64,000 nt of DNA, taken from the IMG/VR virus record IMGVR_UViG_3300041964_000087, positions 5,753 to 69,752 of that record, one strand, 5' to 3'. Origin of the DNA: a virus. The translations under genes and the position numbers were made by a program. The notes beneath the pieces are model-generated. The model worked only from the letters and a program-made list of their open reading frames with translations, did not search any database and had not been told where the DNA came from. Shown one piece after another: positions 1 to 20,129 of this stretch; within the stretch, counting starts at the first letter, position 1, and each line of letters opens with the position of its first letter.

Positions 1-2
1 CC

Positions 3-2522: not shown

Positions 2523-2566
2523 TTCCGGTAATAGGGATTATCGGTATAAACGCAGGGACTGCGGAT

Positions 2567-5730: not shown

Positions 5731-5750
5731 TCCCCATAACGTTATGGGGA
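5731..5750. terminator. Perfect 20-bp palindrome downstream of inserted gene
   Basis: TCCCCATAACGTTATGGGGA. Confidence 0.4.
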
Positions 5751-5760
5751 GAATTGGCAA

Positions 5761-6243: not shown

Positions 6244-6380
6244 TTTATTTTCTTCCTGTTGTAGTTTATGGGTTCGTTAGAACGAGACTTCTAAATAGTT
6301 GGTGGGTTGTTTTTCCTTGCCCCTGCACAAATGAAAAACTGAACAATTGCATTTCTGTAAAGTTGAATTAGTGAACTTTT

Positions 6381-6995: not shown

Positions 6996-7038
6996 AAGTG
7001 CGATCGCGAGTTAACTAAATCCGCAGTGTTTTTCGTTT

Positions 7039-8280
7039 TTAATCGAGATCTCCACTCAGGGTGCCAAATGAAAACTCGAAAGTTTGATTATTCCGGCTAT
7101 CCACTAAATCAATAGTACAGCCTAGCTGATAACCCGCTGTCCATTCGTTCGGCAGTGGAATGTTACTGTAAAACGTCTCCACATTTACTGACTGAGTATC
7201 GTCGTCATAGCTGGCGTGATTGACGCTGAGCGCTTGCACGTCTTGAACCCCTGCATTCTGCACAATACTGATCAGCGTGTAGAGGACAATGGTTTGACCA
7301 AGGGGTAAGTTCCCCGGCGCCAGATAAGCTTCCAACGCATCATTAATCGCCCTTGCTCGTACTTCTGGATTATCCCCAGGAATCAGCGTTGCAATTATAT
7401 AGGGTTCCAGCGCGTAGAGTTCGATGCTGGAAACGGTTACACCAGTGGCGATCGCCGTATTCATATCCCCCTGCAAGAATACAGGAAGCTGCGAGTTCAT
7501 CTCAGTTTGCAGGTTTAGCGCCTGTGCCGATGTCAACTGACTTCCGTCTGGGTTTAAGCAGAATATATGGACATAACCCGCCTTCTTGCTTTGCTTGTCA
7601 GGGGTTAAGAGTCCAACTGCCTTCGCCACACTACCCAGTCCCAACACTTCTGCGGCGTACTGTTCAAAGTCATCAGCACTAATCAGAACGCCCTTTTTAC
7701 GCCGGATGGTTTGGAATCCCCGCGCGATCGCTTCTTCCTGCGTCTCAGCGTCCAATCCCCCCGCTGCCGCCTCAAGGTTGGTGACTGATTGGAGGAATGC
7801 TCTGGTTTGGGTAAGGTTGACAATGGTGTATGCCGGAACGTTGTAGCGGGTCCCAACTTCCTTGGCTGTAGCGGTGACGGTGAATTGGAATGTATTGGTG
7901 AGAGCCACATCCTCATCAGTGAAAAACTCGTAGCCGCCAGCGGTGACCATATAGCCTTTGCTCAATACGAATTGAGCCAGCGTTGTTGAGAGCGTGAAGG
8001 TTAACAGCACTTGGGCTTTCCTGCCCAGTCTTCTTTGGATGCCGCAGGTCTGCAAGTGACGGATGGCGGCTTTTTCTGCGATGCGATCGCAGGCGTATTC
8101 AATTTCTAACCTACAGAACTCGAAGGCGTCGGTGATGACGACCGTTGGGGCATGGGGTGCTCGGTCGTTAAGCAGCCCTTCAGAATTGCTTTCAATTAAA
8201 TTTAAAAGGTAAGGTCTAAGGTCGCGCTTGCCAAAAATACTGGGAGCAATTAGCGGGGTGAACTGTACGGGGTTTGTCAC
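7039..8280 (-). CDS. Baseplate J / Mu gp47 family protein
   Basis: VTATAKEVGTRYNV..VTNLEAAAGGLDAET..ISADDFE..GYVHIF. Confidence 0.92.
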   Translation of the reverse strand: MTNPVQFTPLIAPSIFGKRDLRPYLLNLIESNSEGLLNDRAPHAPTVVITDAFEFCRLEIEYACDRIAEKAAIRHLQTCGIQRRLGRKAQVLLTFTLSTTLAQFVLSKGYMVTAGGYEFFTDEDVALTNTFQFTVTATAKEVGTRYNVPAYTIVNLTQTRAFLQSVTNLEAAAGGLDAETQEEAIARGFQTIRRKKGVLISADDFEQYAAEVLGLGSVAKAVGLLTPDKQSKKAGYVHIFCLNPDGSQLTSAQALNLQTEMNSQLPVFLQGDMNTAIATGVTVSSIELYALEPYIIATLIPGDNPEVRARAINDALEAYLAPGNLPLGQTIVLYTLISIVQNAGVQDVQALSVNHASYDDDTQSVNVETFYSNIPLPNEWTAGYQLGCTIDLVDSRNNQTFEFSFGTLSGDLD

Positions 8281-8296
8281 ATTTTTACTGACTGTT

Positions 8297-8644
8297 TTAA
8301 ACGAAGGTTAGATCGTCTTCACATATCCATTTAGGCTGCTCACTTGGCAGTGCATTGTCTGGCAAAAAAGCATGGTTCATTTTTTCCCATCCCCTGCTTT
8401 TCCCAAATGGCTCACATTTCCACGCCCATCCTGAATACTGAGGGTTGCCATTGCTAACACATGGATCTCTCCAGACAGCACGTTTAGCTTCAGGCGGAAT
8501 AGATTGTTTTTCTGTTGGCGCAATGTTGTCAGTAAGGGTGATTACATCAGCGACAGACTGAGCAAGTTTGATTTTTAACTCATCTTTTAAGACGGCTGAT
8601 TCTGGTACATTGTCAGCCCATGCTTGCAATATCTGGTCAATCAT
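8297..8644 (-). CDS. Hypothetical protein
   Basis: 115-aa ORF packed between baseplate genes. Confidence 0.5.
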   Translation of the reverse strand: MIDQILQAWADNVPESAVLKDELKIKLAQSVADVITLTDNIAPTEKQSIPPEAKRAVWRDPCVSNGNPQYSGWAWKCEPFGKSRGWEKMNHAFLPDNALPSEQPKWICEDDLTFV

Positions 8645-8647
8645 TCG

Positions 8648-9001
8648 CTAATCGCTAACTCTTATTCGCAACGTTCGCACTCTCTCTGGTTCAATTTTAG
8701 CCACCCAGTTGAGAACCACAATCACCAGTCCATTATCATCCACAGTTCCCAAACCCGTACACGATTGGATTGTGGGGCATTGTTCTTCGACGGCGATCGC
8801 GAGTTTTTTGGCGATTAGGTCGGGGGTGGTGAGCGTTGAAAATGTAAAATCCGGCGTACCAGCAGAAACACGCATAATTCGCTCTTTAATACGTGTAAAG
8901 ATAGTAGCGATCGCATCCTGCTGGTCACGGTCGATGCCATCTGAAAGTTTTAATCCGCCGTTTTCAATAGTCCAAGGAAAGGTTGTACTTGTTCGAGTCA
9001 T
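8648..9001 (-). CDS. Baseplate wedge gpW/gp25-like protein
   Basis: FPWTIENG..IFTRIKERIMR..GTPD; position upstream of J. Confidence 0.75.
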   Translation of the reverse strand: MTRTSTTFPWTIENGGLKLSDGIDRDQQDAIATIFTRIKERIMRVSAGTPDFTFSTLTTPDLIAKKLAIAVEEQCPTIQSCTGLGTVDDNGLVIVVLNWVAKIEPERVRTLRIRVSD

Positions 9002-9280
9002 ATGGACAATTTAATCACTGAAACATTTCACAAAATAATAGAGATGTGGGTGCAAGCTCGTGATGAAGCAGTTATTTGCAATAGATTGCAAGCACAAGCT
9101 TACGCTGGCTTGATTGAGCAACACATTCTAGAAGAGTCAATCGGTACGGGTATTGACTTAAACGATAAGACAAAAGTGGTATGCCGTTCGCTTGTATATA
9201 ACGGCACGGTACTTGCTCAACTGACTAGGGTAGGCGGCTGTTACAGAGCAACGGTTGTTAATTTTCAGCAATCGCCTTGA
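9002..9280 (+). CDS. Hypothetical protein
   Basis: 92-aa ORF filling the gap between gpW-like and HTH genes. Confidence 0.4.
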   Translation: MDNLITETFHKIIEMWVQARDEAVICNRLQAQAYAGLIEQHILEESIGTGIDLNDKTKVVCRSLVYNGTVLAQLTRVGGCYRATVVNFQQSP

Positions 9281-9524
9281 TCGCTTCCATCATCGCCTGA
9301 ATCACTTCTGGTTTGATATCCACCCCTACCGCAGCCGCTACTTTCAACAGCGTGGGCAGTGGAACCAGTGGGTTGGGTCGTGCCTTGCGGGTTCCTTCCA
9401 CTAGCTTGATATTGTCGTGGCTCATCCCCGCCGCTGTCCCAATCTCGTGCAAGGTGCGATCGCCTCTCGCTTCCTTCAACACGCTCTCTAGTCCTGGAAT
9501 CTCAATCTCAATAGATACTCTCAT
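9258..9524 (-). CDS. XRE-family HTH regulator
   Basis: LKEARGDRTLHEIGTAAGMSHDNIKLVEG..PTLLKVAAAVGV. Confidence 0.8.
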   Translation of the reverse strand: MRVSIEIEIPGLESVLKEARGDRTLHEIGTAAGMSHDNIKLVEGTRKARPNPLVPLPTLLKVAAAVGVDIKPEVIQAMMEAIKAIAEN

Positions 9525-9545
9525 AAAAAAACTTTGTAAGCTTCC

Positions 9546-9574
9546 TTGACAATCTTAAGCCAGTGGCTTAAATT
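9546..9574 (+). promoter_or_regulatory. Sigma70 promoter with palindromic operator between -35 and -10
   Basis: TTGACA-17-TAAATT enclosing TTAAGCCA-G-TGGCTTAA; near-identical copy at 45883. Confidence 0.75.
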
Positions 9575-9760
9575 AGTAAATAAGCAAGCCGCCGGGACGA
9601 GTAGCCGGAAAGGGAAACCCCTAAGAGAGCTTTCGTCTCGACCCCTGGGAAGCGTGAAGCCTTTGAGCGTAGCGCCGAGATAACACAGATGAGCATCTGG
9701 ATAAATGGCTTGTGCTATCAGCACTGGGTTAACCCGCCGCTGATATTTTTAGGAAACGAT

Positions 9761-9973
9761 ATGTTTAACCACTGCCTGACCACCGACGACCTCGAACTCG
9801 CACTTTTTGAAGCGATGGTTGCCCTCAACAACGGAGTTGAGATGGATGACTCAGTAGAGTTTGACGATCACCTAGCAGCTAACTTTCCAGAAGGTCACAA
9901 GGCTATCTGCGACGCATACCGAGAGCAATCGGACGCAGTCTTCTTTCTGGAGAATCCAGAGTACGCCGAATAG
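9761..9973 (+). CDS. Small acidic protein
   Basis: AGGA RBS before ATG 9761; 70 aa, strongly D/E-rich. Confidence 0.65.
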   Translation: MFNHCLTTDDLELALFEAMVALNNGVEMDDSVEFDDHLAANFPEGHKAICDAYREQSDAVFFLENPEYAE

Positions 9974-10038
9974 TACACGCGACCTAAGTAAGTCCTCAAA
10001 CTGCCTACCCGACACATTTAAAAATCAAGGAATCCACA

Positions 10039-10590
10039 ATGCTACTTTCTACATTGACCGCTTCTCTCCAGTCCGATTACGCTAACTTGCAAGCTCAAAT
10101 TGAAGCTATGCAAGAACAACAGCGCCAGATCGTTGACAAGCTCCAGCAGGTTGGCGCGGTGAGCAGCAAGATGCAGACAGCAGTACTCGCGCTGCAAGAG
10201 GCGATCGCGTCTGTTAATGAGGTTTGCCCAGAAGAGTTGGGTAACTACAAAGAGACAATTACCAGCCTTTTTCAAACGCCTGTTGCCATCCTAGAGGCTG
10301 CGGTAGAGGAGTCAGAAACGGAAGCGCCTGAAGTCGAACTCGACACAATTGATATTGAGCCGACCGAGTACGGAGTAGAGGAAAGCCCAGAAGATGAGAC
10401 AGTGGAGGTTGCCGACGATGGCAGCAACGGTAAGGTTTATTTGACGGCTGATGAGTTGAATGAGCTACCGATTGGGAAGGTGCGATCGCTGGCGGCAAAG
10501 TTTGAGGTATCAGCCAAGGGTAAGCGTTACGAGATTGCAGCACGACTTAAGGGGATGGTCACGCAAGCTGATATGGACACGGTGAATTAG
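10039..10590 (+). CDS. Coiled-coil acidic protein with C-terminal Rho-N/LEM-like helical domain
   Basis: AAGGA RBS; ELNELPIGKVRSLAAKFEVSAKGKRYEIAARL. Confidence 0.65.
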   Translation: MLLSTLTASLQSDYANLQAQIEAMQEQQRQIVDKLQQVGAVSSKMQTAVLALQEAIASVNEVCPEELGNYKETITSLFQTPVAILEAAVEESETEAPEVELDTIDIEPTEYGVEESPEDETVEVADDGSNGKVYLTADELNELPIGKVRSLAAKFEVSAKGKRYEIAARLKGMVTQADMDTVN

Positions 10591-10691
10591 TAGGAGTAAG
10601 ACTCAAATCCGCAGCGCCTGCGGATTTGAGTCTATTGGAAGTACCCTTTTCCAGCCACACGTAAAATCATTAACAAATTGAGGAAAAACCA

Positions 10692-11831
10692 ATGCAATAC
10701 TTAGTAACGACAAAAGTTGAGCAAATCCCATCACGCCACGACAAGCTAATCTGTATGATTGATGGCACGGTTCCAGGCTGGGACAAGCAATCAGGTGATT
10801 TTCACTTCGACCACCATAAGCCCGGTGGCGCTCAAATTCAGATTGATGAGATTCCTGTAGGGTGTATTCTTAGCTTTCCTCTAATTGAGTATGAACCTTT
10901 GTTCATCACAACCCAGTTAGATGCCGATGCTGTCATTGCTGCGGCATGGATGCAACTTAATCCGTCCTTTGTTAATGAGGAAATACGTCGGAAGCTGAGA
11001 GCGATCGCATTTGATTGCGATTACCTCTGTGTCCCTGATGAATTAAGCGACTTAGCCGGATTTGCCGCTAAAGCTGTAGCAGGAATGAAAGCGGAAGGCG
11101 TAAAGCTTCGCGAGAAGATGGAACTTCCTTCAGATTCAAAGCAATGGACAGAAGAGCAGCGCTTGCAGTACTACTCCGAAAGCTTCAAGCGTGATGTTGA
11201 TTGGATTCTGGATGCCGTCCAAGGTATCCGCCCTTTCCCTGGTGAGTCGGGTGAGGCTGATGCTCATTTTGAGAAAATCAAAGCAGATACTGAAAGGCTT
11301 TTAACGGAGTCTAGGTTACGGAAGTATTGCGGTTGCTGGATATCTGACCAAACTGGAATGAAAGGGTACACTGATCCTCGCAGTTTTTACGCGGCAATTC
11401 CTCAACTTGATCCTGATTATGATTGCCAACCAGTGACTTTGGTTATTGGCGATCGCAAAGAAAATGATGGTATTCGCTACACACTAGGCAGTTTGCCTTT
11501 ACATCCCCAGGCTTCATTACTGGACTACTCAACAGCTCATGTATGGGAGGCTCTGAGCGAAGCCGAAAGAAGACTCAATCCTGATTTTCAGGGATGGGGC
11601 GGTCGTGCTGCGGTGGGCGGAAGTTCTTGGAATAATCCTAGCTTGCTGTCGGCAACGGAAGTGATTGATATTGCAATGTTTGCGCTAGGTGTGGAAACCA
11701 AGATGAACAACCCAGAGCCTTTGCCCAAAAAAATAGTAGAGAGATTAGCAGAAAAATCTACGGTCGCAAACCTTAAAGCCTTAGAGGCTAGCATCAAGCG
11801 AACTATTGCCCGAAAGTCTACCAACCCCTAG
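10692..11831 (+). CDS. DHH-superfamily phosphoesterase-like protein
   Basis: IDG..HFDHH..TTQLDADAV..FDCD and C-terminal WGGRAAVGGS. Confidence 0.6.
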   Translation: MQYLVTTKVEQIPSRHDKLICMIDGTVPGWDKQSGDFHFDHHKPGGAQIQIDEIPVGCILSFPLIEYEPLFITTQLDADAVIAAAWMQLNPSFVNEEIRRKLRAIAFDCDYLCVPDELSDLAGFAAKAVAGMKAEGVKLREKMELPSDSKQWTEEQRLQYYSESFKRDVDWILDAVQGIRPFPGESGEADAHFEKIKADTERLLTESRLRKYCGCWISDQTGMKGYTDPRSFYAAIPQLDPDYDCQPVTLVIGDRKENDGIRYTLGSLPLHPQASLLDYSTAHVWEALSEAERRLNPDFQGWGGRAAVGGSSWNNPSLLSATEVIDIAMFALGVETKMNNPEPLPKKIVERLAEKSTVANLKALEASIKRTIARKSTNP

Positions 11832-12621
11832 TAACTAGGCGATCGCCTGTATTATCAACTGCCCCAACAGTCGCCACGCTCTTTCCCGCAATCGTGACAT
11901 CTGAAGCGTTGGTGATGGCGATCGCTTTTCCCGCTGCATCCCAAGACCACTGACCCGCGCCCATCACCCACTTGGAACCGTCAGCGCTGGCAAAAGTCCA
12001 TACCCCATTTGTCATCTCTGCATAAGCGCCGCCTTGAGTAAACCTAATCCGGTCTGCCGCCTCAACTCTCACAGTCCCCACACCAGACGCCAATGCAGTA
12101 AACAGCAGTTCCCCAAACTCTGAATCAATCTGGTAGGTTTCACCCTTGCAGGTAATCGTCACGTCCCCGCCAATTTCCTCGGTAACTGCGCCATCAACAC
12201 CAACGAAGCGATCGCCCTTCACAAGCTGCCTGTCATCTCCGGGCAGTTTTGTCGTGTTGTCCAATACTGGGGCGAGTTGTCCCGTGTCTGGCGGGTTGGT
12301 CTGGTTGGATAGGGTGCGAAGGAAGAAAGGCTTGTGAGGGTCGCCATCTACGAGGCTAATTAAGACGTGCGTACCTACTGGTGGGATGGGTTCATCAGTG
12401 ACGCTGGTAGACCTACCGCAGGGGAACCAATCACTCTCAGCTTTCCCCCCTTGTGCCTGCCTTGTCACCCTAATCCGTCTCATCCCAGTGGGGTCGTCGT
12501 TGCGGGTCACAATCGCTTCTTGAATGGCTGGCTGACGGTGCAACAGTTCCCTAATTTGAGGAAGTAAGCGGACGAGTTCAGCAAGTGCAGAGGTGAAAGA
12601 GGGCGATCGCATTTGTAACAA
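11818..12621 (-). CDS. Baseplate assembly protein V / gp5-like spike
   Basis: NDDPTGMRRIRV..SDW..PPVGTHVLISLVDGDPHKP OB-fold, beta-repeat C-terminus. Confidence 0.88.
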   Translation of the reverse strand: MLQMRSPSFTSALAELVRLLPQIRELLHRQPAIQEAIVTRNDDPTGMRRIRVTRQAQGGKAESDWFPCGRSTSVTDEPIPPVGTHVLISLVDGDPHKPFFLRTLSNQTNPPDTGQLAPVLDNTTKLPGDDRQLVKGDRFVGVDGAVTEEIGGDVTITCKGETYQIDSEFGELLFTALASGVGTVRVEAADRIRFTQGGAYAEMTNGVWTFASADGSKWVMGAGQWSWDAAGKAIAITNASDVTIAGKSVATVGAVDNTGDRLVTRGW

Positions 12622-13009
12622 GGGTAAAATAGTATTTTACTGGGTGGTCGATGTGTTGCCCAAAAGCATTTTAATTATTGAAGATAATCCTGCTATTTTA
12701 AATAATTTGGCAGAACTCTTAGAAAGTAGAGGCTATCTTCCATTAATCGCAGATAACGGTTATTCGGGGTTGCAAATGGCGATCGCATATCAACCCGATT
12801 TGATTTTGTGTGATTTGCATATTGGCGGATTATCGGGATTGCAAATCGCTAAAACATTGCGGAATCGGGGTAACGCTACACCCATTGTGTTTCAAACAGC
12901 GGATGTTAAGAAAGAAGTACTTGAAGAATTAGAGGGCTTCGGTGAGGTCGTTTACAAGCCTTTTTCTATTGATGAAATAATGGGCGTTGTTGATAAGTTT
13001 TTGAAATGA
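12593..13009 (+). CDS. Single-domain CheY-like response regulator (true start probably ~12650)
   Basis: ILIIEDN..QPDLILCDLHIGGLSGL..PIVFQTA..YKPFS. Confidence 0.9.
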   Translation: MKEGDRICNKGKIVFYWVVDVLPKSILIIEDNPAILNNLAELLESRGYLPLIADNGYSGLQMAIAYQPDLILCDLHIGGLSGLQIAKTLRNRGNATPIVFQTADVKKEVLEELEGFGEVVYKPFSIDEIMGVVDKFLK

Positions 13010-13010
13010 T

Positions 13011-13115
13011 AAACCCCTCATCCTAAAACAAGGGGTTTCGTTGCGTTGAGTTGAAAAGTGACGTGTAGCGACGTGATGAGGCGAGTCGAGTTGAGGCGAG
13101 GAGAGATGAATCGCC
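13011..13115 (-). ncRNA. Pentamer-repeat RNA unit F (15 x [YTC/CAC/CGC]-NN + 3' hairpin)
   Basis: Strict 5-nt period; hairpin AAACCCCTTGTT-TTAG-GATGAGGGGTTT with G-U pairs on minus strand. Confidence 0.7.
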
Positions 13116-13130
13116 ACTCTATCTTAAAGC

Positions 13131-13254
13131 AAATCGCCCAAGGGTTAGCTTAGGCGATCGCTCGTTGTGTTGTATTGAGGCGTGATGAGCTGAACAGAGA
13201 AGAGATGAAGAGTGACGTGTAGAGTCGAGGAGTGTAGAGTGGAGCCGAGATGTC
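13131..13254 (-). ncRNA. Pentamer-repeat RNA unit E (18 pentamers + 3' hairpin)
   Basis: ctc-gg ctc-ca ctc-ta cac-tc...; hairpin ATCGCCTAAG..CTTGGGCGAT. Confidence 0.7.
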
Positions 13255-13277
13255 ACTCTATCTTAAAGCAAATCGCC

Positions 13278-13955
13278 CTATTCTCTGCTGACGAGCATTG
13301 CGAATGGGTTCCCGACTGCGCTTATTGCGGTTTCCATCCGAGCAAACAACGTTGGGTTACGCTTCTCTGCACAAACACTAAAGCGATACCGATGTTTAGG
13401 GCAAACCTCAATCATGTCGAAAAGTCCCCCTCGCTGAAAATACAAACAGTGTCTTGCTGCTGTACTTTTTCCTATTCCACACCCCTCAGCTAGCTCTTGG
13501 GCTGACATCCAGCGATCAGTGTCCTTGAGCAAGCAATACACCTTAAGCTGAGTCAGGCTTACTTCTGCGGTTTCTAAAAAGCGAGAGTGATTCTGGCTTG
13601 TTTCAGACGCTTTTTTAACAGGAGTAATAGGCGTGCTATAACTTCCCGTTTTGCGAATACTAGGGAGAACATCGTGAAGTACCCATCGCTTAAAGCTTTT
13701 GGCAACTGGCTTGCGAGATTTAAAAATTAGGTGATACAGCCCAGCTTCTGTCACTGTAAGCATTTCTTGACTACCACCAAGGGTGCGAACAATCTTCGCA
13801 CCCTTTTCATCATCATCTAAACCACCAAGAGCTTTGCTGGTGTCAGTTAGCTCAAGGCAAAAACAAACATCCTGGGCTACCCATTCTGGACTGTCTGCCG
13901 TCCCCACGAAGCGAACATCTATATCCTTGAACCGAAAAACTGATAAATTAGTCAT
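13278..13955 (-). CDS. BRO-N domain protein (antirepressor-like) with C-terminal wHTH
   Basis: PEWVAQDVCFCL..TLGGSQEMLTVTEAGLYHLIFKSRKPVAKSFKRWVLHDVLPSIRKTGSY. Confidence 0.92.
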   Translation of the reverse strand: MTNLSVFRFKDIDVRFVGTADSPEWVAQDVCFCLELTDTSKALGGLDDDEKGAKIVRTLGGSQEMLTVTEAGLYHLIFKSRKPVAKSFKRWVLHDVLPSIRKTGSYSTPITPVKKASETSQNHSRFLETAEVSLTQLKVYCLLKDTDRWMSAQELAEGCGIGKSTAARHCLYFQRGGLFDMIEVCPKHRYRFSVCAEKRNPTLFARMETAISAVGNPFAMLVSRE

Positions 13956-14082
13956 GTCGCCTAGTTCTGTTAGGTTGACCGCGCCTCTGGGTATTTAGAG
14001 TACCGCAGAGGTACTACTCTATTTTACCATTAAGTAATTGCTGGCAGCCTTATGTTGCAAGGCTTTCCCCTATCAAAAAAGC

Positions 14083-14182
14083 AAATCGCCCAAGGGTTAG
14101 CTTAGGCGATCGCTCGTTGCGTTGTGTTGAGGCGTACTGAAGAGAGACGAGCTGAGTCGAGGCGAGGCAAGTCGAGGTGTAC
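14083..14182 (-). ncRNA. Pentamer-repeat RNA unit D (13 pentamers + 3' hairpin identical to unit E)
   Basis: 42-bp identity 14078-14119 vs 13126-13167; 5-nt period. Confidence 0.7.
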
Positions 14183-14190
14183 CAAATATA

Positions 14191-14290
14191 ATACCCTCCA
14201 TCCAAAGACAAAGGGTATCCGATGAGTTGAGAGGAGTAGAGCCGAGCTGAGGCGAGGCGAGGCGAGTCGAGTGGCGCTGTAACGTCCCTA
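14191..14290 (-). ncRNA. Pentamer-repeat RNA unit C (13 pentamers + 3' hairpin)
   Basis: TAGGGAC start, ten consecutive CTC-NN, CGGATACCCT hairpin with G-U pairs on minus strand. Confidence 0.72.
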
Positions 14291-14294
14291 CATT

Positions 14295-14789
14295 CTACTT
14301 GAACGCTCTCAAATCCTCTATCAACGCTTGTTTATCCAGCATCTGCTCAGGTGACTTAATCACACGTTCCCTCAAAGCCTTGTCTGTATCTTTGGTAGAA
14401 AACGCTTCCCTCAACCCCAGATAAGCCATTGATAAGCCATACTCAACCCGTTGGGAGTGAGTCAGTTTAGCAGGTTCAACACATTCAATCTTCTGTCTAT
14501 ATATTTGGGTGTCACTCTTCAGCCGCTTGCCATGAACATCGTTTGCATGGCGGCTGATATCTTTGTTGGCAAGGCGAGTAAAGCCCCTACCAATCTCACA
14601 CCGAAGTACAACCGAATACTCCTTTTGGACAATACCGCAAGCTGTTTCAATAAAGTGTCGATAACGCTTTTGAACATCACAGTTAGCGATCGCGTTCAAG
14701 TCTTCATAGGAGATAAACTCACCTTCTTTCAAATCACGGAACGTTTGGACTAACTGCTGAGTAATAGGCGATCGCTTATCAGTTTTCAT
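14295..14789 (-). CDS. Partner protein of the RAMP-like gene (possible winged-helix DNA-binding protein)
   Basis: ATG 14789 overlaps the upstream stop by 11 nt; GEFISYEDL..LRCEIGRGF pattern. Confidence 0.7.
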   Translation of the reverse strand: MKTDKRSPITQQLVQTFRDLKEGEFISYEDLNAIANCDVQKRYRHFIETACGIVQKEYSVVLRCEIGRGFTRLANKDISRHANDVHGKRLKSDTQIYRQKIECVEPAKLTHSQRVEYGLSMAYLGLREAFSTKDTDKALRERVIKSPEQMLDKQALIEDLRAFK

Positions 14790-15366
14790 CGTTAAACTCC
14801 ATCGTTGCAACCTTGAACCGTCCGAAGTATCCGTTATTCCGTGGACGAAAACGACCAATTCCAATCAATCGCCCTGCTTGTTCTAGATGTCGTTTCAACA
14901 CATCCTCTGTGATAGTGTCGTCATAGACTAGGAACTCTACCGTTCCCTGCCATTTATAGATAACTGGATAACATTTCTGAACCCGTTTACCACTACCTCG
15001 AACACCATCAGCCGGATAGAAGCCCCATTCACCAACCCAGTCATCTTTAAGGATTGGTTGCTCGTCTAAGTCCATGAGGTACATGGGTTCAATGCACAGG
15101 ATACCCGCTTCAAAGTGCTTAGTCCATGTTGACTTACCTTTGCCTGGTATCTGCTCACCCAGAAACTTTGCCGCTTCAGATAAAGCGTTTTTCAGTGCCA
15201 TGTTAGGGACAAATGTTTTGCCGTCTTGGTCAACATGAATCCGCTCTTTCCAGGTTCGTTCCTCATAGGCGTCTGCTAATTCTTTGTTGAGCTTTGGTGT
15301 GTTGTGAAACTTTGACTGAGAGTAGGGCGTTAATCCTACTAAATGCGCGATCGCAACTTTCGACAT
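14779..15366 (-). CDS. Stand-alone RAMP/Cas7-like protein
   Basis: N-terminal strand LVGLTP, FVPNMALKNAL helix, YPVIYKWQGTVEF, C-terminal G-rich loop AGRLIGIGRFRPRNNGYFGRF; no other cas genes nearby. Confidence 0.78.
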   Translation of the reverse strand: MSKVAIAHLVGLTPYSQSKFHNTPKLNKELADAYEERTWKERIHVDQDGKTFVPNMALKNALSEAAKFLGEQIPGKGKSTWTKHFEAGILCIEPMYLMDLDEQPILKDDWVGEWGFYPADGVRGSGKRVQKCYPVIYKWQGTVEFLVYDDTITEDVLKRHLEQAGRLIGIGRFRPRNNGYFGRFKVATMEFNDEN

Positions 15367-15393
15367 AACTATTTTGTGGAGAATAGCGAACAC

Positions 15394-15445
15394 CTATACT
15401 ATACACAATGCAGTATCGCAGTAATGCAGTGTTGCATTAATATGG
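15394..15445. promoter_or_regulatory. Divergent promoter region with 8-bp periodic YGCAGT repeats
   Basis: TGCAGTAT-CGCAGTAA-TGCAGTGT-TGCATTAA between the RAMP-like gene and plus-strand RNA units. Confidence 0.45.
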
Positions 15446-15448
15446 AAA

Positions 15449-15525
15449 GGCGTCGCAGTTCGACTCCCCTCAATTCGTCTCAGATCGACACAACGCATCT
15501 GTACCCCTTGCTTCGGTGAGGGGTA
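15449..15525 (+). ncRNA. Pentamer-repeat RNA unit A (10 pentamers + cUUCGg hairpin)
   Basis: cgc-ag ttc-ga ctc-cc ctc-aa...; TACCCCTTGC-TTCG-GTGAGGGGTA. Confidence 0.68.
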
Positions 15526-15531
15526 TCATAT

Positions 15532-15625
15532 TAGGGACGACTCCACTCCTCTCAGCTCGCCTCTGCTCCACACTTCTCCTCTCTTTGCAGCACATCGCAA
15601 CGGATGCCCTGCTTCGGTGGGGCAT
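15532..15625 (+). ncRNA. Pentamer-repeat RNA unit B (13 pentamers + cUUCGg hairpin)
   Basis: TAGGGAC start and CGGATGCCCT end mirror unit C; ATGCCCTGC-TTCG-GTGGGGCAT. Confidence 0.72.
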
Positions 15626-15632
15626 TGCATTG

Positions 15633-18434
15633 TCAATATTGGTTGCAGGACTGATTGTATCGATGTACCGGAATCCCCATTTTCAGCACGTCGATTCCCA
15701 CTTTTGAGAGCAAGCAATAACTACCATTCAAATTAAAGACCAAGTGCAAGTGTTCACCAGAACTCGATCCCGTACTTCCCATGGTTGCAATAGTTTGCCC
15801 TTGCTTTACTTGCTGTCCTTTTGCTACTAGGATTTTCAGGCAGTGGGCATAGAGAGAGTCATAACCGCCTCCATGTTGGACCGCTACATAGTTACCGAAT
15901 CCACTGCCACACCCTTTATTGCCTTTTACGCACCCCGTCACTGTCTGAGTTACAACGCCGTCAGCCATTGCAATTATGGGACTGCCTGATGCTCCTGTTA
16001 CATCAAGTATCTTATGCCGATAGCCAGCTCTGCGATTAGCCCTAGTGCCATAGCCATCGCCGATAGTTGTCGGCTTCAAAACGGGGAAGATAAAGCCTCC
16101 CGGCGCCAACGCAGGAGCCGCAAACTGAGTCACTTCCCCTGGAGTTGCAGGAGCAACAGCACCCGAAGAAGCCGGAGCAGCTGCCTGAGGAGTATAAAAT
16201 TGCAGCCCAACCGTTCCTGCCCCTACATCATGATTCACAGACCCAATCCGCTTCTCTGTAGCGAACACATCAGGGAATAGCCGCTTACTGAGCGCCACGA
16301 TTTCACCAGGAACAAGTTGCAGCGTCCGTTGGTTCATGACTAACACGCAGTCATCCTCGTATCCCTTCACCCTGCGCGATTCGTCTGCTATCACCTGCGC
16401 CTCAGCACGCCCATCCTGTAGGTCAATGAACCCAGCTTGCTGATTGGGTAGTCCTGTCACTGGGTCAGCGCTGGCTGTAGCACCAGCCCCAGGCGCCGCT
16501 TCACTGTTGCTTTTAAGCTTCGATTGTTCCAGTAGTTTCTTGTCTTCTGCCGACACCTTCGGTTCTTCTTTGGTAGTAACCGCAGGCGCTTTTTGCGGTT
16601 CGTAAACAGTTGTTTTGGTGACTGTCTTGCCCTCGGTTACGGTTACCGCGACAACCTTATCAACTTTGACGGGTTGAGCGTTGGGCTTGGTGGTTGTAGT
16701 CGAAGTGGTTTTAGTTCTGACAATCTTTCCCGGTTCAAGAGTCTGCTCAGTGGTGATGGTCGTGACAACAACCGTGCCATCTTCTTTGGTTACTTTAACT
16801 GGCCCTTCAACCTTCTGGGTTTTAGTTTCTTGGCTTGCCGACGCCACTGTTGACGGAGTGATAGCAGGTGTAGTTGTGCTGGCTGTCGCTGCATCCGGTT
16901 TCACCGTTCCACCAACAGCGGGTGCTGTTGCTCCGGTTGTGCCTCCACTGCCTACCGCTTGCCCAGTTCCCGCTTTACTCTCAGGCTTGGTTTGGGCTAG
17001 AGCGCCTGTTGCCCTATCAATCGCTGTCTTGGTTTCCCCTGTCCCAGTTTCTGGTGTGCTTACCGTCGCGGCGGGTGCGTTGCTACTGGCTGCCCGTGCC
17101 TTGTCGGTGAAGCGGACGGGCTTAATCAGCACTTCCTCATCGATGATGAAATTGGTAAATTGTGGGCGTGCGAATGGCTCAACAATTAAGGTATCAGACT
17201 TCTTGCCCGTTCCTTCTGCGATACGGAACCCGGTGCGATTCGCTTCACGGAATAGGGTAGCAAGTGCGGTTTGACCATCTTGGCTCAAGTGTTGGAACGT
17301 CAATCCCGAACCTTCCATTTCAAGCTTGAGGTTGAAGCCACTAGCCTGAAGTTCGGTGTATTGCTTGAGGTTAATGTTTTCAAATGACTGGGTGACCGGA
17401 ACGCGAGTGAGCAGCCACCTGATGGACTTGCCGCCGAATGTTGTGATTTGTGCGCCGGAGGCGTCCCAACTGGTGTCAGTGGAGGTATGGATGAAGTGAA
17501 AGGCGATCGCATCTTTGAATGTCACGCCAACGCCTACTGCCACCTCAATGATTATCTCTGTACCCTTGTTGGAGACTTCAACCGTAGGCGCAATCTCCTG
17601 AGCTACAGCTTCAGCCGGAGGGGTAACAGGTGCATCCATACTTTCTGCGGCTGATGTTGGCGCTGCCGCTGCTGTTTGTCCTTTGTAATAGGCTAGGCGT
17701 TCTGTGTAAGTCTTCCTTGCCTGCGCCATCGTCTGAACTGGCTGCCCATAAGGACTGCCAGGTAAGCTTGCCCAGGTTGTAGCGCTTTTACGAATTGCCC
17801 CTTCTAAATCCCCGTTGTTAATCGCCGTAAAGGCGCTTAGTTGCTTGAGGTAGGCGACAGCCGCTAAGTCTTGGCTTCTAGGTGAAAAGTCTTTGACTCC
17901 AGCTTTTACCTTGAATTCATCCCATGATGTTGAAAGGAATTGATAACGCCCAGCAGCGTCACTAACTAGCCGTCCTGAACGGTGCTTTCTGCGTGGATGG
18001 TCAGCGAACCCGCTAAACTTCTCACTAGTCAGTGACATGACTGTGTAGGCTGAAGGATCTAAATAGTTAGGTACTTCGTGAGAGGCGATGACATCTAAGA
18101 ACGCTTTAACCTCTGGGCTGAAGTCTGCTGTTGATACCCCTATTCCTGTACTTGTATTTCCTTCTGCGACAGGGGTAGCCGTGACGATTGGCTGGTTTTT
18201 TGTGGGGTCTTGTAACAGCTCAGCCGGAACGAGTAAGCCACCTTCCCTGACGCTGATCTCTCGGTATTTGGCGCCGATCAGTAAATTCTCATCACGCACA
18301 CTGAATGATGCTGTACTCGATCTGAGGTCTTCTCCGAGAGAAATTTGGACATTAGGTAGCAGTATTCCGTCGCCCGTTTGAAAAACATCATTATCTCCGA
18401 TGCGAATTCTGATGATCTTAGAAGTTAGTTCCAT
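15633..18434 (-). CDS. Baseplate hub-like virion protein with lambda-type muramidase (GH104-like) and C-terminal M23 peptidase
   Basis: AFLDVIASHE..AAGRYQFLSTSW..FSPRSQDLAA; H..D..GNYVAVQH..YAHC..GSTGSSSGEHLH. Confidence 0.85.
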   Translation of the reverse strand: MELTSKIIRIRIGDNDVFQTGDGILLPNVQISLGEDLRSSTASFSVRDENLLIGAKYREISVREGGLLVPAELLQDPTKNQPIVTATPVAEGNTSTGIGVSTADFSPEVKAFLDVIASHEVPNYLDPSAYTVMSLTSEKFSGFADHPRRKHRSGRLVSDAAGRYQFLSTSWDEFKVKAGVKDFSPRSQDLAAVAYLKQLSAFTAINNGDLEGAIRKSATTWASLPGSPYGQPVQTMAQARKTYTERLAYYKGQTAAAAPTSAAESMDAPVTPPAEAVAQEIAPTVEVSNKGTEIIIEVAVGVGVTFKDAIAFHFIHTSTDTSWDASGAQITTFGGKSIRWLLTRVPVTQSFENINLKQYTELQASGFNLKLEMEGSGLTFQHLSQDGQTALATLFREANRTGFRIAEGTGKKSDTLIVEPFARPQFTNFIIDEEVLIKPVRFTDKARAASSNAPAATVSTPETGTGETKTAIDRATGALAQTKPESKAGTGQAVGSGGTTGATAPAVGGTVKPDAATASTTTPAITPSTVASASQETKTQKVEGPVKVTKEDGTVVVTTITTEQTLEPGKIVRTKTTSTTTTKPNAQPVKVDKVVAVTVTEGKTVTKTTVYEPQKAPAVTTKEEPKVSAEDKKLLEQSKLKSNSEAAPGAGATASADPVTGLPNQQAGFIDLQDGRAEAQVIADESRRVKGYEDDCVLVMNQRTLQLVPGEIVALSKRLFPDVFATEKRIGSVNHDVGAGTVGLQFYTPQAAAPASSGAVAPATPGEVTQFAAPALAPGGFIFPVLKPTTIGDGYGTRANRRAGYRHKILDVTGASGSPIIAMADGVVTQTVTGCVKGNKGCGSGFGNYVAVQHGGGYDSLYAHCLKILVAKGQQVKQGQTIATMGSTGSSSGEHLHLVFNLNGSYCLLSKVGIDVLKMGIPVHRYNQSCNQY

Positions 18435-18556
18435 TGATATTTCTAATCTTCTCGTCCTTCAAGAATAATTCAAACTGATCGAGGGTATTGCGCTTTGCTC
18501 CGCTTTAACTTGTCAGCCTGGAGACTTGATGAAATGGACTTTGGGGAGCAATATAG

Positions 18557-19075
18557 ATGATTAACCCAGAAGCTATTGATTTGAATTCTCTACCTTGGCT
18601 ACCACTAGAGGCTCGTTCAGCCTTTCCGCGCCAACCTGCTATTTACTTTGCAATTAATCGAGACGGGGAAGTTCAATATATCGGTATTTCCCAAGACCCT
18701 AAGCGACGGTGGGCACAGCATCATCGCTATGAGGATTTACAAGAGTCAAAAGGGGTGAAGATCGCTTATTTGTTTGTAGAAGACGTTGCGCTACTTAGAC
18801 CAATCGAATCTGCCTTGATTGCCTGGTTTCGTCCACCCCTCAATGTAGTCGGCGTTTCTGGTTGTGACTTCCCCCCAAATTGTAATTTTGGGGTAAGGAG
18901 GGTAAAAGGTATCCCTGTTTACCGGGACGAAAAAAAGAGCGATCGCAAGGTAAGCCTTACCCCTACTTGCTGGGAGAAGCTGGGTCAGTTTGCCGCTAAA
19001 TTGCATGAATCAGGAGAGATACCAGCCGCTTCACGTTCTGAGGCGATTGAGTGGCTAGCTAGACAGGAATTTTGA
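18557..19075 (+). CDS. GIY-YIG domain protein with C-terminal RHH-like region
   Basis: AIYF..VQYIG..RRWAQHHR..E..LI..PPLN; SRSEAIEWLAR. Confidence 0.82.
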   Translation: MINPEAIDLNSLPWLPLEARSAFPRQPAIYFAINRDGEVQYIGISQDPKRRWAQHHRYEDLQESKGVKIAYLFVEDVALLRPIESALIAWFRPPLNVVGVSGCDFPPNCNFGVRRVKGIPVYRDEKKSDRKVSLTPTCWEKLGQFAAKLHESGEIPAASRSEAIEWLARQEF

Positions 19076-19111
19076 TGAGTTTAGAAGTTGGTTGCATGGG
19101 TGCGATCGCGT

Positions 19112-19543
19112 CTAGTTAAATTCGTGTCTTTTCAGAAACTTCATCATTTCTCTACTTGTAATACTTTGCGGGAATAGAGAAGGACGATTATACCAATTGC
19201 TCCAAAAAAGAGGTTTACTGGGTTCAATAATATGCAATCGCACAAGGACATCCAGATCACTCTCCCCAATTAACCCGTTCCAGTATGGACTGAAATCTAC
19301 TAGGTAGTGCGCCCAAAATATACCTTGCTGCTCAAACGTTAGTCCAATACTAAAACTAAAAGGGTAATCAAGATGGCGTTCAACTTGGAACCCTTGGAGT
19401 TTACCGACAATATCCCACGACTTTAAGTATTGGCTTTCTAATTCATATTTGACGCGGATAGCAGGTTGCCTGAGTGCAAATTCAAATAATTTACGAATGT
19501 CTCGGATTTTTGGCATTGGCTGAAAAAGCGATCGCGAACTCAA
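19112..19543 (-). CDS. Hypothetical protein
   Basis: 143-aa ORF coupled to upstream gene. Confidence 0.55.
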   Translation of the reverse strand: MSSRSLFQPMPKIRDIRKLFEFALRQPAIRVKYELESQYLKSWDIVGKLQGFQVERHLDYPFSFSIGLTFEQQGIFWAHYLVDFSPYWNGLIGESDLDVLVRLHIIEPSKPLFWSNWYNRPSLFPQSITSREMMKFLKRHEFN

Positions 19544-19845
19544 TCCACATCTGGCATTTCTATTGTCTGCCCTGTCAGTTCATGGGTGCAATCAGGTAAA
19601 TATTGAATTTTGCCATCAGTGACGAATGAGTGACACACCATTGTTTTAGTGCCATCAGGGCGTGACACTTTACTTAAAATACTGGGTTTAAATGTTGGCT
19701 TTTCTGTATTGCCGTTGAAGTCCCAGCTTGCTCCATTCGGTGAGATGTGAGGGCGGACGTAAACCTCATGACTACATTTGCAACCAGGGCAATCGAAGAT
19801 GTATGCAACGGCTACTCCGTTCTCTTGTGATGTTAGAAGTTTCAT
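19540..19845 (-). CDS. DUF6527-like Cys/His protein
   Basis: CPGCKCSH..WDFNGNTEKPTFKPSI..CHSFVTDGKIQYLPDCTH. Confidence 0.75.
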   Translation of the reverse strand: MKLLTSQENGVAVAYIFDCPGCKCSHEVYVRPHISPNGASWDFNGNTEKPTFKPSILSKVSRPDGTKTMVCHSFVTDGKIQYLPDCTHELTGQTIEMPDVD

Positions 19846-19913
19846 TTGCGATCTGCGCTTCGCAGCAGCGCTTCGCTATCGCCTTTAAATCCGCAGCGTT
19901 TGAAAGTATTTCA

Positions 19914-20129
19914 TCAAGCCGTTCGACTAACATAAGCGAACCTTGGCACTTTTTGACCGTCGTGTGTCACGGTTTCAAGAAACATTGCATGAGGTCTAAC
20001 CCACCAATCACCAGCGCGGTTCTTATATAGCACTAGCCATTCTTCTGTCTCGGAGTGGCGAACTATTCCAAGCACTTCGTACATTCCGCCTTTGAAATGT
20101 TGATAAATACCCGGTTGAATGTTTGCCAT
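19914..20129 (-). CDS. DUF1653 domain protein
   Basis: PGIYQHFKGGMYEV..HSETEEWLVLY..WVRPHAMFLE..PRF. Confidence 0.9.
   Translation of the reverse strand: MANIQPGIYQHFKGGMYEVLGIVRHSETEEWLVLYKNRAGDWWVRPHAMFLETVTHDGQKVPRFAYVSRTA

What the first reader, a model, noticed from the sequence alone, without database searches (positions are those of the whole stretch)
13011..15625. Lone Cas7/RAMP-like gene surrounded by six pentamer-coded small-RNA units: candidate non-CRISPR RNA-guided system
SEEN: six tracts with strict 5-nt period, each a near-fixed triplet (mostly CTC; also CAC, CGC, TTC, TAC) plus a variable dinucleotide, closed by a 3' hairpin. Four lie downstream of the two-gene operon on the minus strand and two lie divergently on the plus strand. 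Strand is fixed independently by hairpin chemistry: G-U pairs work only on the CUC-NN strand, and both plus-strand units end in cUUCGg loops. Units share boundaries (TAGGGAC..CGGATRCCCT in B and C; GATAGAGTG..AA-AA-AA in E and F). Decoded NN strings: A gt-ag-ga-cc-aa-gt-ag-ga-aa-at; B ga-ca-ct-ag-gc-tg-ca-tt-ct-tt-ag-at-aa; C gt-ag-ca-ga-gc-gc-gc-ag-gg-ta-ct-aa-at; D ac-ga-gc-gc-ga-ag-gt-tc-ag-gc-aa-aa-aa; E at-gg-ca-ta-tc-ga-ta-gt-tc-at-tt-tg-ag-at-gc-aa-aa-aa; F ga-at-tc-gc-aa-ga-gc-at-gt-ta-gt-tt-aa-aa-aa. No cas1/2/3/5/6/8/10 and no repeat-spacer array are present. KNOWN: RAMP/Cas7 proteins polymerise along guide RNAs with a fixed nucleotide step. INFERENCE: one subunit binds each fixed triplet and displays the NN pairs, which together spell a gapped target, for example to silence rival phages or host genes. 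From memory, this resembles recently reported phage VIPR systems with GGY/NN RNAs (to be verified). Here the scaffold triplet is pyrimidine-rich YUC/CNC, so it would be a distinct variant.
Basis: partly seen in the sequence, partly recalled or inferred. Interest (0 to 1): 0.97.

Follow-up and report, generated by a model that had tools for sequence, protein, structure and literature searches.

The report
Cyanophage VIPR system with CUC-type guides
This is a phage-borne VIPR system (a small Cas7-like protein plus six guide-RNA genes built from five-base repeats), a kind first described in 2026, and it is unusual only in that the fixed part of each repeat is pyrimidine-rich (mostly CUC) rather than the usual GGY.

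Summary
CTCNNCTCNNCTC occurs 20 times in the window against 0.42 expected, always inside 13078-15568. Six units parse as 10-18 pentamers of Y-D-C plus a variable NN, followed by a hairpin.

The 195-aa protein (14779-15366, minus) is a Vipr. Its only PDB sequence match is the SUSP1 Vipr protein (E 9.6e-6; profile 6.5e-9; hhalign 97.4%). Its model matches Cas7/Csm3 folds. VIPR was published in 2026 preprints, and non-GGY repeats (GAC/NN, CAC/NN) were reported in October 2026. CUC is not named in the text I could search.

Relatives of this Vipr clade carry the same unit architecture on the gene strand, with GGC, GAC, GTC, GTT, CGC, CAC or CTC handles. The cyanobacterial relatives share CTC but have different NN strings.

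The CUC strand is supported by longer G-U hairpins, -10-like boxes upstream of 21 of 21 units and shared polarity with the other handle classes.

No natural target was found in any search, and no RNA data exist.

Verdict: a real VIPR system, a new member with a little-described handle. Interest is moderate.

The parts
14779..15366 (-). vipr: 195-aa Vipr (minimal RAMP/Cas7-like) protein, ATG at 15366
   Evidence: The only PDB sequence hit is 36pp_D, SUSP1 Vipr protein (E 9.6e-6). Profile search gives E 6.5e-9 with the next hit at 0.11. hhalign against SUSP1 YP_009199429 gives 97.4%, E 1.4e-11, 142 columns. The AF2 model has pLDDT 91.7, and its top Foldseek hits are type VII Cas7, Csm3 and Cmr subunits, with 139 hits at E<=0.001. 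The G-loop GIGRFRPRNNGYFGRF aligns with SUSP1 GVGDWRPRFGRF.
14295..14789 (-). vap: 164-aa accessory gene that overlaps the vipr stop by 11 nt; probable winged-helix DNA binder
   Evidence: tblastn finds a homologue next to vipr in 29 of 92 related loci at E<=1e-3. hhalign against the SUSP1 gene downstream of vipr gives prob 62%, E 7.4e-5, 90 columns. The AF2 model has pLDDT 88.8. Foldseek finds nothing at E<=0.001; the weak list (best 0.018) is mostly wHTH regulators such as BirA N-terminus, OmpR/ToxR, GntR, MarR and histone H1. No Pfam, PHROG or PADLOC family matches.
   Evidence: Parse. The hairpin is 13 bp on this strand against 7 on the other. It is called terminator-like. A -10-like TAGAAT (14292-14297) lies just upstream and contains the vap stop codon.
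   Evidence: The hairpin is about 15 bp on this strand against 6+3 on the other. It is terminator-like, 11 pairs followed by TGCTTTTTTG. A -10-like TATTAT lies upstream.
   Evidence: The tail plus the first repeats are 79% identical to m3 over 99 nt. A -10-like TAAGAT lies upstream.
   Evidence: A -10-like TAAGAT lies upstream.
   Evidence: A -10-like TAATAT (15438-15443) lies upstream. This is the least regular unit (ATCGA and CTGTA deviate).
   Evidence: A -10-like element in TATCATATT lies upstream.
13278..13955 (-). Bro-N / HTH (anti-repressor-like) gene inserted inside the downstream vrRNA array; cargo, not a conserved VIPR part
   Evidence: Pfam Bro-N E 2.5e-18 and HTH_IclR E 7.1e-5. PHROG anti-repressor Ant E 2.6e-41. 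tblastn finds no homologue in the 92 related loci. The cassette is flanked by copies of the 14-nt tail 3' half at 13265-13278 and 14078-14091.

Best explanation
The locus is a VIPR (Viral Interference Programmable Repeat) system carried by a tailed cyanophage.

Parts: vipr (14779-15366, minus) encodes a minimal RAMP protein. vap (14295-14789, minus) encodes a probable winged-helix accessory protein. Six separate vrRNA genes surround them.

How it most likely works: each vrRNA is transcribed from its own -10-type promoter on the CUC-containing strand. It consists of a short leader, 10-18 pentamers and a stable 3' hairpin tail. Each pentamer has a fixed handle Y-D-C (mostly CUC) plus two free bases. 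The last two or three NN are AA. By homology with the solved SUSP1 complex, one Vipr protomer binds per pentamer. The filament buries the handle triplets and displays the NN pairs. Together the NN pairs read double-stranded DNA as a gapped word (NN, one skipped base, NN ...), and binding represses transcription of a competing mobile element.

What differs here is the handle: a pyrimidine-rich triplet instead of GGY. The SUSP1 guanine-reading residues are replaced (D177 to R172, W178 to F173, R138 to Y133).

Shown here: protein homology and fold, RNA-gene architecture, co-occurrence across relatives, and strand polarity. Inferred: transcription, RNP assembly, the one-base skip rule for this variant, dsDNA repression and the targets.
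For: (1) Protein. The only PDB sequence match is SUSP1 Vipr. hhalign gives 97.4%. The Cas7/Csm3 fold is recovered with 139 hits at E<=0.001.

(2) Tracts. Twenty CTCNNCTCNNCTC matches against 0.42 expected, all in the locus. The 82 pentamers have fixed positions 1-3 and free positions 4-5.

(3) Published VIPR anatomy matches. The papers describe a vipr+vap operon, vrRNAs of 9-16 repeats followed by a 3' tail, placed upstream and downstream, in phages and without cas genes or arrays. The SUSP1 locus read here shows GGY/NN tracts followed by a tail on the gene strand.

(4) Relatives. I fetched 92 loci encoding Vipr homologues (49-87% identity by tblastn best segment). With the window that makes 93. 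Of these, 66 have a clear handle: GGC 40, GAC 8, CTC 6 (the window included), CGC 6, GTT 2, GTC 2, CAC 1, AGT 1. The other 27 are unclear. In the loci I printed (13 non-CTC loci covering GGC, GAC, CGC, GTC, GTT and CAC; 7 loci for CTC) the unit layout is the same. It is [handle NN]n, mostly ending in two or three NN = AA (some AT or GA), followed by a tail.

(5) Loci L001, L013, L014, L017, L020 and L022, related to the window's, carry YNC handles with NN strings unlike the window's.

(6) Strand. The tail hairpins are 10-15 bp on the CUC strand against 6-7 bp on the other. TANNNT lies within 35 nt upstream of 21 of 21 units in sense, against 11 of 21 in antisense. Two tails are terminator-like on the minus strand.

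(7) vap is conserved beside vipr in 29 of 92 loci.

(8) Phage setting. The window lies in a virus record of 69,752 bp. Terminase, portal, sheath, tape-measure and baseplate genes are present.
Against: No target was found.
- Own genome: best NN match under skip 0, 1 or 2 equals the shuffled level.
- 21 guides from six related phage records, searched against those six records: none above shuffles.
- Exact 10-NN gapped patterns of five guides in IMG/VR: 0 hits each.
- 11-NN patterns of two guides in the metagenome collection: 0 hits.
- The 14-NN pattern of one guide with up to 3 mismatches: 0 of 401 cyanobacterial genomes sampled.
Exact-match scans are much less sensitive than the >=80% NN criterion of the papers.

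The SUSP1 residues that read G1 and G2 are not conserved here. The G-loop is almost invariant across handle classes. So how the handle is read is unknown.

No strict sigma-70 promoter was called for any unit.
Confidence: 0.85

Rival explanations
1. It is a VIPR system, but the RNAs are made from the opposite strand. The units would then be a 5' hairpin followed by NN/GAG (GNG-type, purine) repeats. This handle would be closer to the guanine-rich canonical one.
For: GAG contains two guanines, like GGY. The two upstream units would then be co-directional with vipr, as in SUSP1, where one vrRNA lies upstream. TANNNT also occurs on the antisense side of 11 of 21 units.
Against: The four downstream units would then be antisense to the operon. 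In the relatives I printed, across the handle classes and including canonical GGC, the tract, AA-type terminal repeats and tail lie on the gene strand. The hairpins lose their G-U pairs and shrink from 10-15 bp to 6-7 bp. The tail would be 5', unlike the published vrRNAs. The -10-like boxes sit at a fixed distance 5' of the CUC-sense tract in 21 of 21 units.
Confidence: 0.06
2. It is a VIPR-family RNP with the CUC handle, but it uses a different reading rule or substrate from SUSP1. Examples are another skip length, RNA targets, or host genes as targets. That would explain why the xNN searches are blank.
For: All xNN target searches were blank. The handle-contacting residues differ from SUSP1. 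Only 25% of residues are identical over the 142 aligned columns.
Against: Skip 0 and skip 2 searches on the six phage records were equally blank. The blanks are expected from low sensitivity and from a missing host or competitor genome: the closest cyanobacterial DNA match to the first 20 kb of the window is only 64-80% identical over stretches of about 90-470 bp. The thumb and helical-bundle parts that set the skip in SUSP1 lie within the aligned region.
Confidence: 0.12
3. The pentamer tracts are DNA-level elements (protein-binding iterons, recombination sites or decaying repeats). They are not guides, and their position next to the RAMP gene is incidental.
For: No expression data exist. A wHTH-like protein and a Bro-N/HTH protein are encoded in the locus.
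Against: Tracts co-occur with the Vipr gene across phyla, with handle-specific conservation and free NN. Each has a promoter-like box and a hairpin or terminator. The protein is a homologue of one solved in complex with such RNA.
Confidence: 0.02

Closest known systems
SUSP1 / P. fulva VIPR (type II), bioRxiv 10.64898/2026.04.26.720920 and 10.64898/2026.04.26.720927
   Same: A minimal RAMP protein homologous to SUSP1 Vipr. A vipr-vap two-gene operon, with weak vap homology (hhalign 62%). Several vrRNA genes flank the operon, each a run of 5-nt repeats (3 fixed + 2 free) followed by a structured 3' tail. Phage-borne, with no CRISPR array found.
   Different: The handle is Y-D-C (CUC 44 of 82) rather than GGY. 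SUSP1 D177, W178 and R138 correspond to R172, F173 and Y133. The tail is a plain hairpin, not the SUSP1 pseudoknot (the pseudoknot is described). Two units are divergent from the operon. Protein identity is only about 25-32%. The VIPR type (I-VII) could not be assigned because the paper's data S4 and Fig. S16/S17 were not visible to me.
Non-canonical VIPR arrays (GAC/NN, CAC/NN, WGT/NN, TGH/NN) in bioRxiv 10.64898/2026.10.21.760802
   Same: Period-5 arrays with a fixed non-GGY triplet next to a Vipr-like fold. In this Vipr clade I found GAC (8 loci) and CAC (1 locus) as handles. CAC makes up 12 of the window's 82 pentamers.
   Different: CUC/CTC is not named in that paper's text (whole-word search). 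Its Fig. S10A, which lists all patterns, is an image I could not see. The window's handle is degenerate (Y at position 1, A/G/U at position 2) rather than one fixed triplet.
Class 1 CRISPR backbone subunits (Cas7: Csm3, Cmr4, type VII Cas7)
   Same: The RRM-core RAMP fold with G-loop and thumb: the top Foldseek hits have E 2e-7 to 4e-5 and TM about 0.5-0.58. One subunit binds per fixed step of guide RNA (established knowledge of Cas7 filaments).
   Different: There is no CRISPR array in the window and no cas-family match among the three locus proteins scanned. The step is 5 nt with 2 read bases rather than 6 nt with 5 read bases. The guides are genes with their own promoters, not processed spacers.

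Membership tests
VIPR system | Vipr protein: a minimal RAMP (RRM core, glycine-rich loop, thumb) homologous to described Viprs | tested here: met
   phmmer against PDB finds only SUSP1 Vipr, E 9.6e-6. Profile E 6.5e-9. hhalign 97.4%. The fold matches Cas7/Csm3. The G-loop aligns.
VIPR system | vrRNA genes: tandem 5-nt units of three conserved and two hypervariable bases, about 9-16 units, followed by a conserved or structured 3' tail | tested here: met
   Six units of 10-18 pentamers plus a hairpin tail. NN strings differ between related loci while the handle is kept.
VIPR system | Handle triplet is GGY (canonical definition) | tested here: not met
   The handle is Y-D-C: CTC 44, CAC 12, TTC 7, CGC 7 of 82, and no GGY. 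The papers allow 'a related consensus' (NNNGG, YNNNG, NNNNG) and non-canonical triplets. So this fails the canonical motif, not the family.
VIPR system | Minimal locus: vipr plus a vap gene, no cas genes, no CRISPR array; mostly viral or proviral | tested here: met
   vap is conserved beside vipr in 29 of 92 loci. TRF finds no array. The three locus proteins gave no cas-family PADLOC match (one weak CARF3 row, E 0.0087, for the Bro-N protein). The window is part of a virus record with phage structural genes. The other ORFs of the window were not scanned for cas genes.
VIPR system | vrRNAs are expressed and co-purify with Vipr | not testable with these tools
   No RNA run was listed for the locus, which is not evidence either way.
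VIPR system | NN dinucleotides specify dsDNA targets under the 1-nt skip rule, with natural targets in competing mobile elements | tested here: inconclusive
   No target above chance in the own genome, five related phage records, IMG/VR, the metagenome collection or 401 cyanobacterial genomes. The remote scans were exact-match or allowed at most 3 mismatches.
VIPR type II (SUSP1-like, vap1) | Placement in the type II clade of the Vipr tree, with a vap1 accessory gene | tested here: inconclusive
   vap against the SUSP1 downstream gene gives hhalign prob 62%, E 7.4e-5. Vipr identity to SUSP1 is about 25-32%. The classification tables are in supplements that I could not see.
CRISPR-Cas class 1 | Cas7 backbone together with a repeat-spacer array and other cas genes | tested here: not met
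   The fold is Cas7-like, but there is no array and no cas-family match among the three locus proteins scanned.

The most novel reading that the evidence does not exclude
The handle triplet of VIPR guides is an evolvable 'dialect', not a fixed scaffold.

Within one Vipr clade it has switched repeatedly among GGC, GAC, GTC, GTT, CGC, CAC and CUC. Cross-class protein pairs are as close as 73-80% identical.

The switch from a G-first to a C-first handle tracks two residues. All 42 of 42 G-first proteins have V117 and F133. All 13 of 13 C-first proteins have a non-V residue at 117 and/or Y at 133. Position 133 aligns with the SUSP1 G2-contacting R138.

The all-pyrimidine CUC form in cyanophages would then be a mutually orthogonal guide language. 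It could insulate a phage's Vipr from hijack by rivals' solo or decoy vrRNAs, a conflict documented for SUSP1 satellites. It could also supply ready-made orthogonal VIPR pairs for multiplexed gene control.
Probability: 0.3. Interest if true: 0.7.

Novelty: new member of a known kind. Interest (0 to 1): 0.45.

Why it matters
VIPR is a months-old class of RNA-guided DNA binders with a gapped code, and everything mechanistic is known from GGY-handle systems of enterobacterial and Pseudomonas phages.

This locus shows the same machine in a tailed cyanophage with a handle that contains no guanine at all in most repeats. The syn-guanine recognition seen in the SUSP1 structure therefore cannot be universal.

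The comparison across 93 loci suggests that the handle changes easily with few protein changes. If so, there should be natural sets of orthogonal Vipr/vrRNA pairs, and an arms-race reason for them.

For cyanophage biology, it marks a probable inter-phage or phage-host silencing device in a group where none has been studied. The targets remain unknown.

Tried and rejected
Families and expression
- Rfam scan of 12000-17000 at E<=1: no family.
- Pfam for Vipr and vap: nothing above cut-off.
- PADLOC: nothing for Vipr or vap; one weak CARF3-family row (E 0.0087) for the Bro-N protein.
- RNA evidence: no RNA holder was listed for 12900-15700.

Target searches (all blank)
- Own 69.7-kb genome under skip 0, 1 and 2. 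The skip-3 'hits' are the guides' own genes.
- 21 guides against six related phage records under skip 0, 1 and 2.
- IMG/VR exact 10-NN patterns for five guides.
- Metagenome exact 11-NN patterns for two guides.
- One 14-NN pattern with up to 3 mismatches in 2 genomes and in 401 genomes.
- Guide p1 was never searched remotely.

Host identification
- A DNA search with window 1-20000 in 401 cyanobacterial genomes gave matches in 83, but only short ones. The longer matches (about 90-470 bp) are 64-80% identical, and there are also 26-70-nt repeats. No host or prophage twin was found.

Distribution of CUC arrays
- 78 of the 80 are low-diversity repeats. One (L117) lies 164 nt from a Vipr homologue. 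One (L194) is a diverse tract at a contig end.
- The scan says little about distribution.

Covariation test on the tree
- Only 2 independent pairs on supported branches (5 on all branches), so there is no statistical power. The association is reported as raw counts only.

Other
- The N-terminal 84 residues alone found no Vipr in the PDB, so SUSP1 H17 could not be mapped.
- Coding potential of the tracts was rejected: a 5-nt period cannot keep a reading frame, and the overlapping ORFs are 45-63 aa.
- Supplements and figures of all four papers were not visible. Fig. S17 and data S4 of the first paper and Fig. S10A of the fourth may already list a CUC-type handle.

Full report
WHAT IS IN THE SEQUENCE

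The region 13011-15627 holds two overlapping minus-strand genes: 14779-15366 (195 aa) and 14295-14789 (164 aa). Six tracts of strict 5-nt period surround them.

A period-5 self-match scan of all 64 kb flags six regions. Five are in this locus and one weak one lies at 58821-58870. The pattern CTCNNCTCNNCTC occurs 20 times against 0.42 expected from shuffles. No shuffle out of 100 reaches 20, and all matches fall between 13078 and 15568.

In RNA sense the six units hold 82 pentamers:
- Position 1 is C 70, U 11, A 1.
- Position 2 is U 54, A 15, G 13 and never C.
- Position 3 is C in 75.
- Positions 4-5 are free.
- CUC accounts for 44, CAC 12, UUC 7, CGC 7.

Four units are on the minus strand: m4 and m3 directly after the operon, and m2 and m1 beyond a Bro-N gene. 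Two units (p1, p2) are on the plus strand, divergent from the operon.

THE PROTEIN

The 195-aa product has no Pfam family above cut-off. It matches one PHROG of unknown function. It belongs to a large unnamed family: 1952 proteins at E<=0.001 of 2196 candidates and 1250 cluster representatives.

Against all PDB sequences it matches one entry only, 36pp 'SUSP1 Vipr protein' (E 9.6e-6). A 24-sequence profile gives 6.5e-9, with the next hit at 0.11. hhalign against the SUSP1 protein read from the phage record gives 97.4% probability over 142 columns.

The AlphaFold model (pLDDT 91.7) matches Cas7-type subunits with 139 hits at E<=0.001. These include type VII Cas7, Csm3 and Cmr subunits.

WHAT IS KNOWN

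I used four preprints.
- bioRxiv 10.64898/2026.04.26.720920. I read the whole Results, three Methods sections and searched passages. It describes VIPR as a phage-borne Vipr RAMP with a vap gene and vrRNAs of 9-16 GGY/NN repeats followed by a 3' tail. These read dsDNA by a one-base-skip code and repress competing elements. It defines seven types. Its alternative consensus patterns are NNNGG, YNNNG and NNNNG.
- 10.64898/2026.04.26.720927. I read three Results sections. One protomer binds per repeat. G1 is read by H17 and D177, G2 by R138 and W178, and Y3 by a pocket that includes R179.
- 10.64898/2026.10.21.760802. I read searched passages and one Methods section. It reports 21 clusters of VIPR arrays with non-canonical triplets, for example GAC/NN, CAC/NN, WGT/NN and TGH/NN.
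- 10.64898/2026.10.15.759431. I read searched passages only. It describes solo and decoy vrRNAs and vrRNAs aimed at rivals' VIPR loci.

Whole-word or word-start searches for CUC and CTC returned nothing in three of the four papers. The structure paper (10.64898/2026.04.26.720927) was not searched for these terms. Their figures and supplements were not visible to me.

RELATIVES

I fetched 12 genomic and 80 viral loci that encode homologues, 49-87% identical by tblastn best segment. Counting triplets repeated three times at 5-nt spacing near the gene gives a clear handle, read on the gene strand, in 66 of the 93 loci (window included). The tally is GGC 40, GAC 8, CTC 6 (window included), CGC 6, GTT 2, GTC 2, CAC 1 and AGT 1. 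The other 27 are unclear.

In the loci I printed (13 non-CTC loci; 7 for CTC) the units share one layout. They are handle-NN repeats, mostly ending in two or three with NN = AA (some AT or GA). A tail follows that begins with the first base or bases of the handle.

The CTC loci cluster on the tree around the window. They include an Allocoleopsis MAG. Their NN strings are unrelated to the window's. This is the hallmark of a guide: constant handle, free NN.

The 164-aa partner has homologues beside vipr in 29 of 92 loci. It shows a weak profile match to the SUSP1 gene downstream of vipr (62%). Its model has an N-terminal domain whose weak structural neighbours are mostly winged-helix DNA binders, though none reaches E<=0.001.

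WHICH STRAND

Three independent lines favour the CUC strand.
1. The terminal hairpins are 10-15 bp with G-U pairs and cUUCGg loops on that strand, but only 6-7 bp on the other. Two are called terminator-like on the minus strand.
2. In 21 units of six related phages a TANNNT box (TAAGAT, TAGAAT, TATTAT, TAATAT, TAGGAT ...) lies about 10-14 nt before the first repeat. It is present in 21 of 21 in sense against 11 of 21 in antisense. The strict sigma-70 scan called none, so the promoters remain an inference.
3. The polarity of tract, AA repeats and tail is the same as in the canonical GGC relatives and in SUSP1 itself.

HOW THE HANDLE MIGHT BE READ

The SUSP1 guanine contacts are replaced: D177 by R172, W178 by F173 and R138 by Y133.

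Across the clade the G-loop GIGRFRPRNNG hardly varies with handle class. Two positions follow the first handle base instead. All 42 of 42 G-first proteins have V117 and F133. Among 13 C-first proteins, 9 have Y133, 10 have a non-V residue at 117, and all 13 have at least one of the two.

Cross-class pairs can be closer than many same-class pairs:
- GGC against GAC: 79.6% identical.
- CGC against GAC: 73.7%.
- CGC against GGC: 73.1%.
- Within GGC: 50-87%.

On the best tree the first handle base changes six times. The tree is poorly resolved, and the independent-pairs test has only 2 supported pairs, so the association is not statistically established.

TARGETS

None was found. Under skip 0, 1 or 2 the best matches in the phage's own 69.7 kb equal shuffled controls. 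This agrees with the papers' report of no self-targeting. Cross-searching 21 guides against six related phage records gave nothing above shuffles. Exact gapped patterns gave 0 hits in IMG/VR (five guides) and in the metagenome collection (two guides). One long guide with up to 3 mismatches matched 0 of 401 sampled cyanobacterial genomes.

These scans are far less tolerant than the >=80% NN criterion used in print, and the host is unidentified. So the blanks are weak evidence.

SETTING

The window is 5753-69752 of a 69,752-bp IMG/VR virus record estimated at 76% complete. It carries terminase, portal, tail sheath, tape measure and baseplate genes. The VIPR locus sits between a baseplate-V-like gene and a lysozyme/M23 peptidase tail protein.

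No isolated phage in GenBank has a homologue above 33% identity (73 records, all in the <60% band).

VERDICT

This is a VIPR system, with a confidence of 0.85 for the full statement, strand included. It is not a new kind of system.

It fails the canonical GGY motif. However, non-GGY VIPR arrays are already in print, so I file it as a new member of a known kind with a handle (Y-D-C, mostly CUC) that I did not find named in the text of the three papers I searched for it.

Its main value is comparative. It shows that guanines in the handle are dispensable. Together with its relatives, it also suggests that the handle is a labile, possibly orthogonalising, part of the system.

Earlier scan notes on this genome helped in two places. 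The Bro-N cassette duplication was checked. The partner gene and the 8-bp repeats in the divergent region were checked in part.

Noticed in passing
window 13265-13278, 13126-13139 and 14078-14091: The 14-nt 3' half of the m2/m3 tail (AAAGCAAATCGCCC on the plus strand) occurs three times: in the two tails, and as an orphan copy abutting the stop of the Bro-N gene. The Bro-N cassette therefore looks inserted between unit m3 and the promoter of m2, with a 14-bp duplication. None of the 92 related loci has a Bro-N homologue near vipr.
   Followed up: partly
window 15407-15440: Four 8-bp-period repeats (ATGCAGTA TCGCAGTA ATGCAGTG TTGCATTA) lie between the vipr start and the -10-like box of unit p1. 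They could be an operator for the wHTH-like vap or another regulator. Read by eye only.
   Followed up: no
window 14112-14181 and 14217-14276: Guides m3 and m4 share a run of six similar NN pairs (GA GC GC GA AG GT against GA GC GC GC AG GG). This suggests duplicated guides that are diverging, or two variants of one target.
   Followed up: no
window 3302-3332 and 19847-19882: Short stretches (about 26-55 nt) match many sampled cyanobacterial genomes, mostly at 87-100% identity, often several times per genome. They look like small dispersed host-type repeats and point to a cyanobacterial host. No tRNA gene is present in the window.
   Followed up: no
window 12593-13009: A stand-alone response-regulator receiver domain gene (Pfam Response_reg, E 5.2e-19) is encoded on the plus strand. 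It ends 2 nt before the tail of unit m1.
   Followed up: no
L001-L092 (related loci): Within one Vipr clade the fixed triplet of the flanking arrays varies (GGC, GAC, GTC, GTT, CGC, CAC, CTC). Cross-class protein pairs are up to 73-80% identical. First-base G against C tracks residues 117 and 133 (window numbering).
   Followed up: partly
window 15449-15627: Among the 93 loci examined, the window is the only one in which upstream units are inverted relative to vipr (GAG on the gene strand, 4 triple-repeat counts). In all other loci with upstream tracts, these are co-directional with the gene.
   Followed up: partly
L117:4750-4839 and L194:36-95: Of 80 IMG/VR loci with six consecutive CTCNN units, L117 has an 18-unit tract 164 nt from a Vipr homologue (54% identical to the protein of L090). 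L194 has a 12-unit tract with diverse NN at a contig end and no Vipr gene in the fetched piece, so it is a possible solo vrRNA or simply a cut locus.
   Followed up: no
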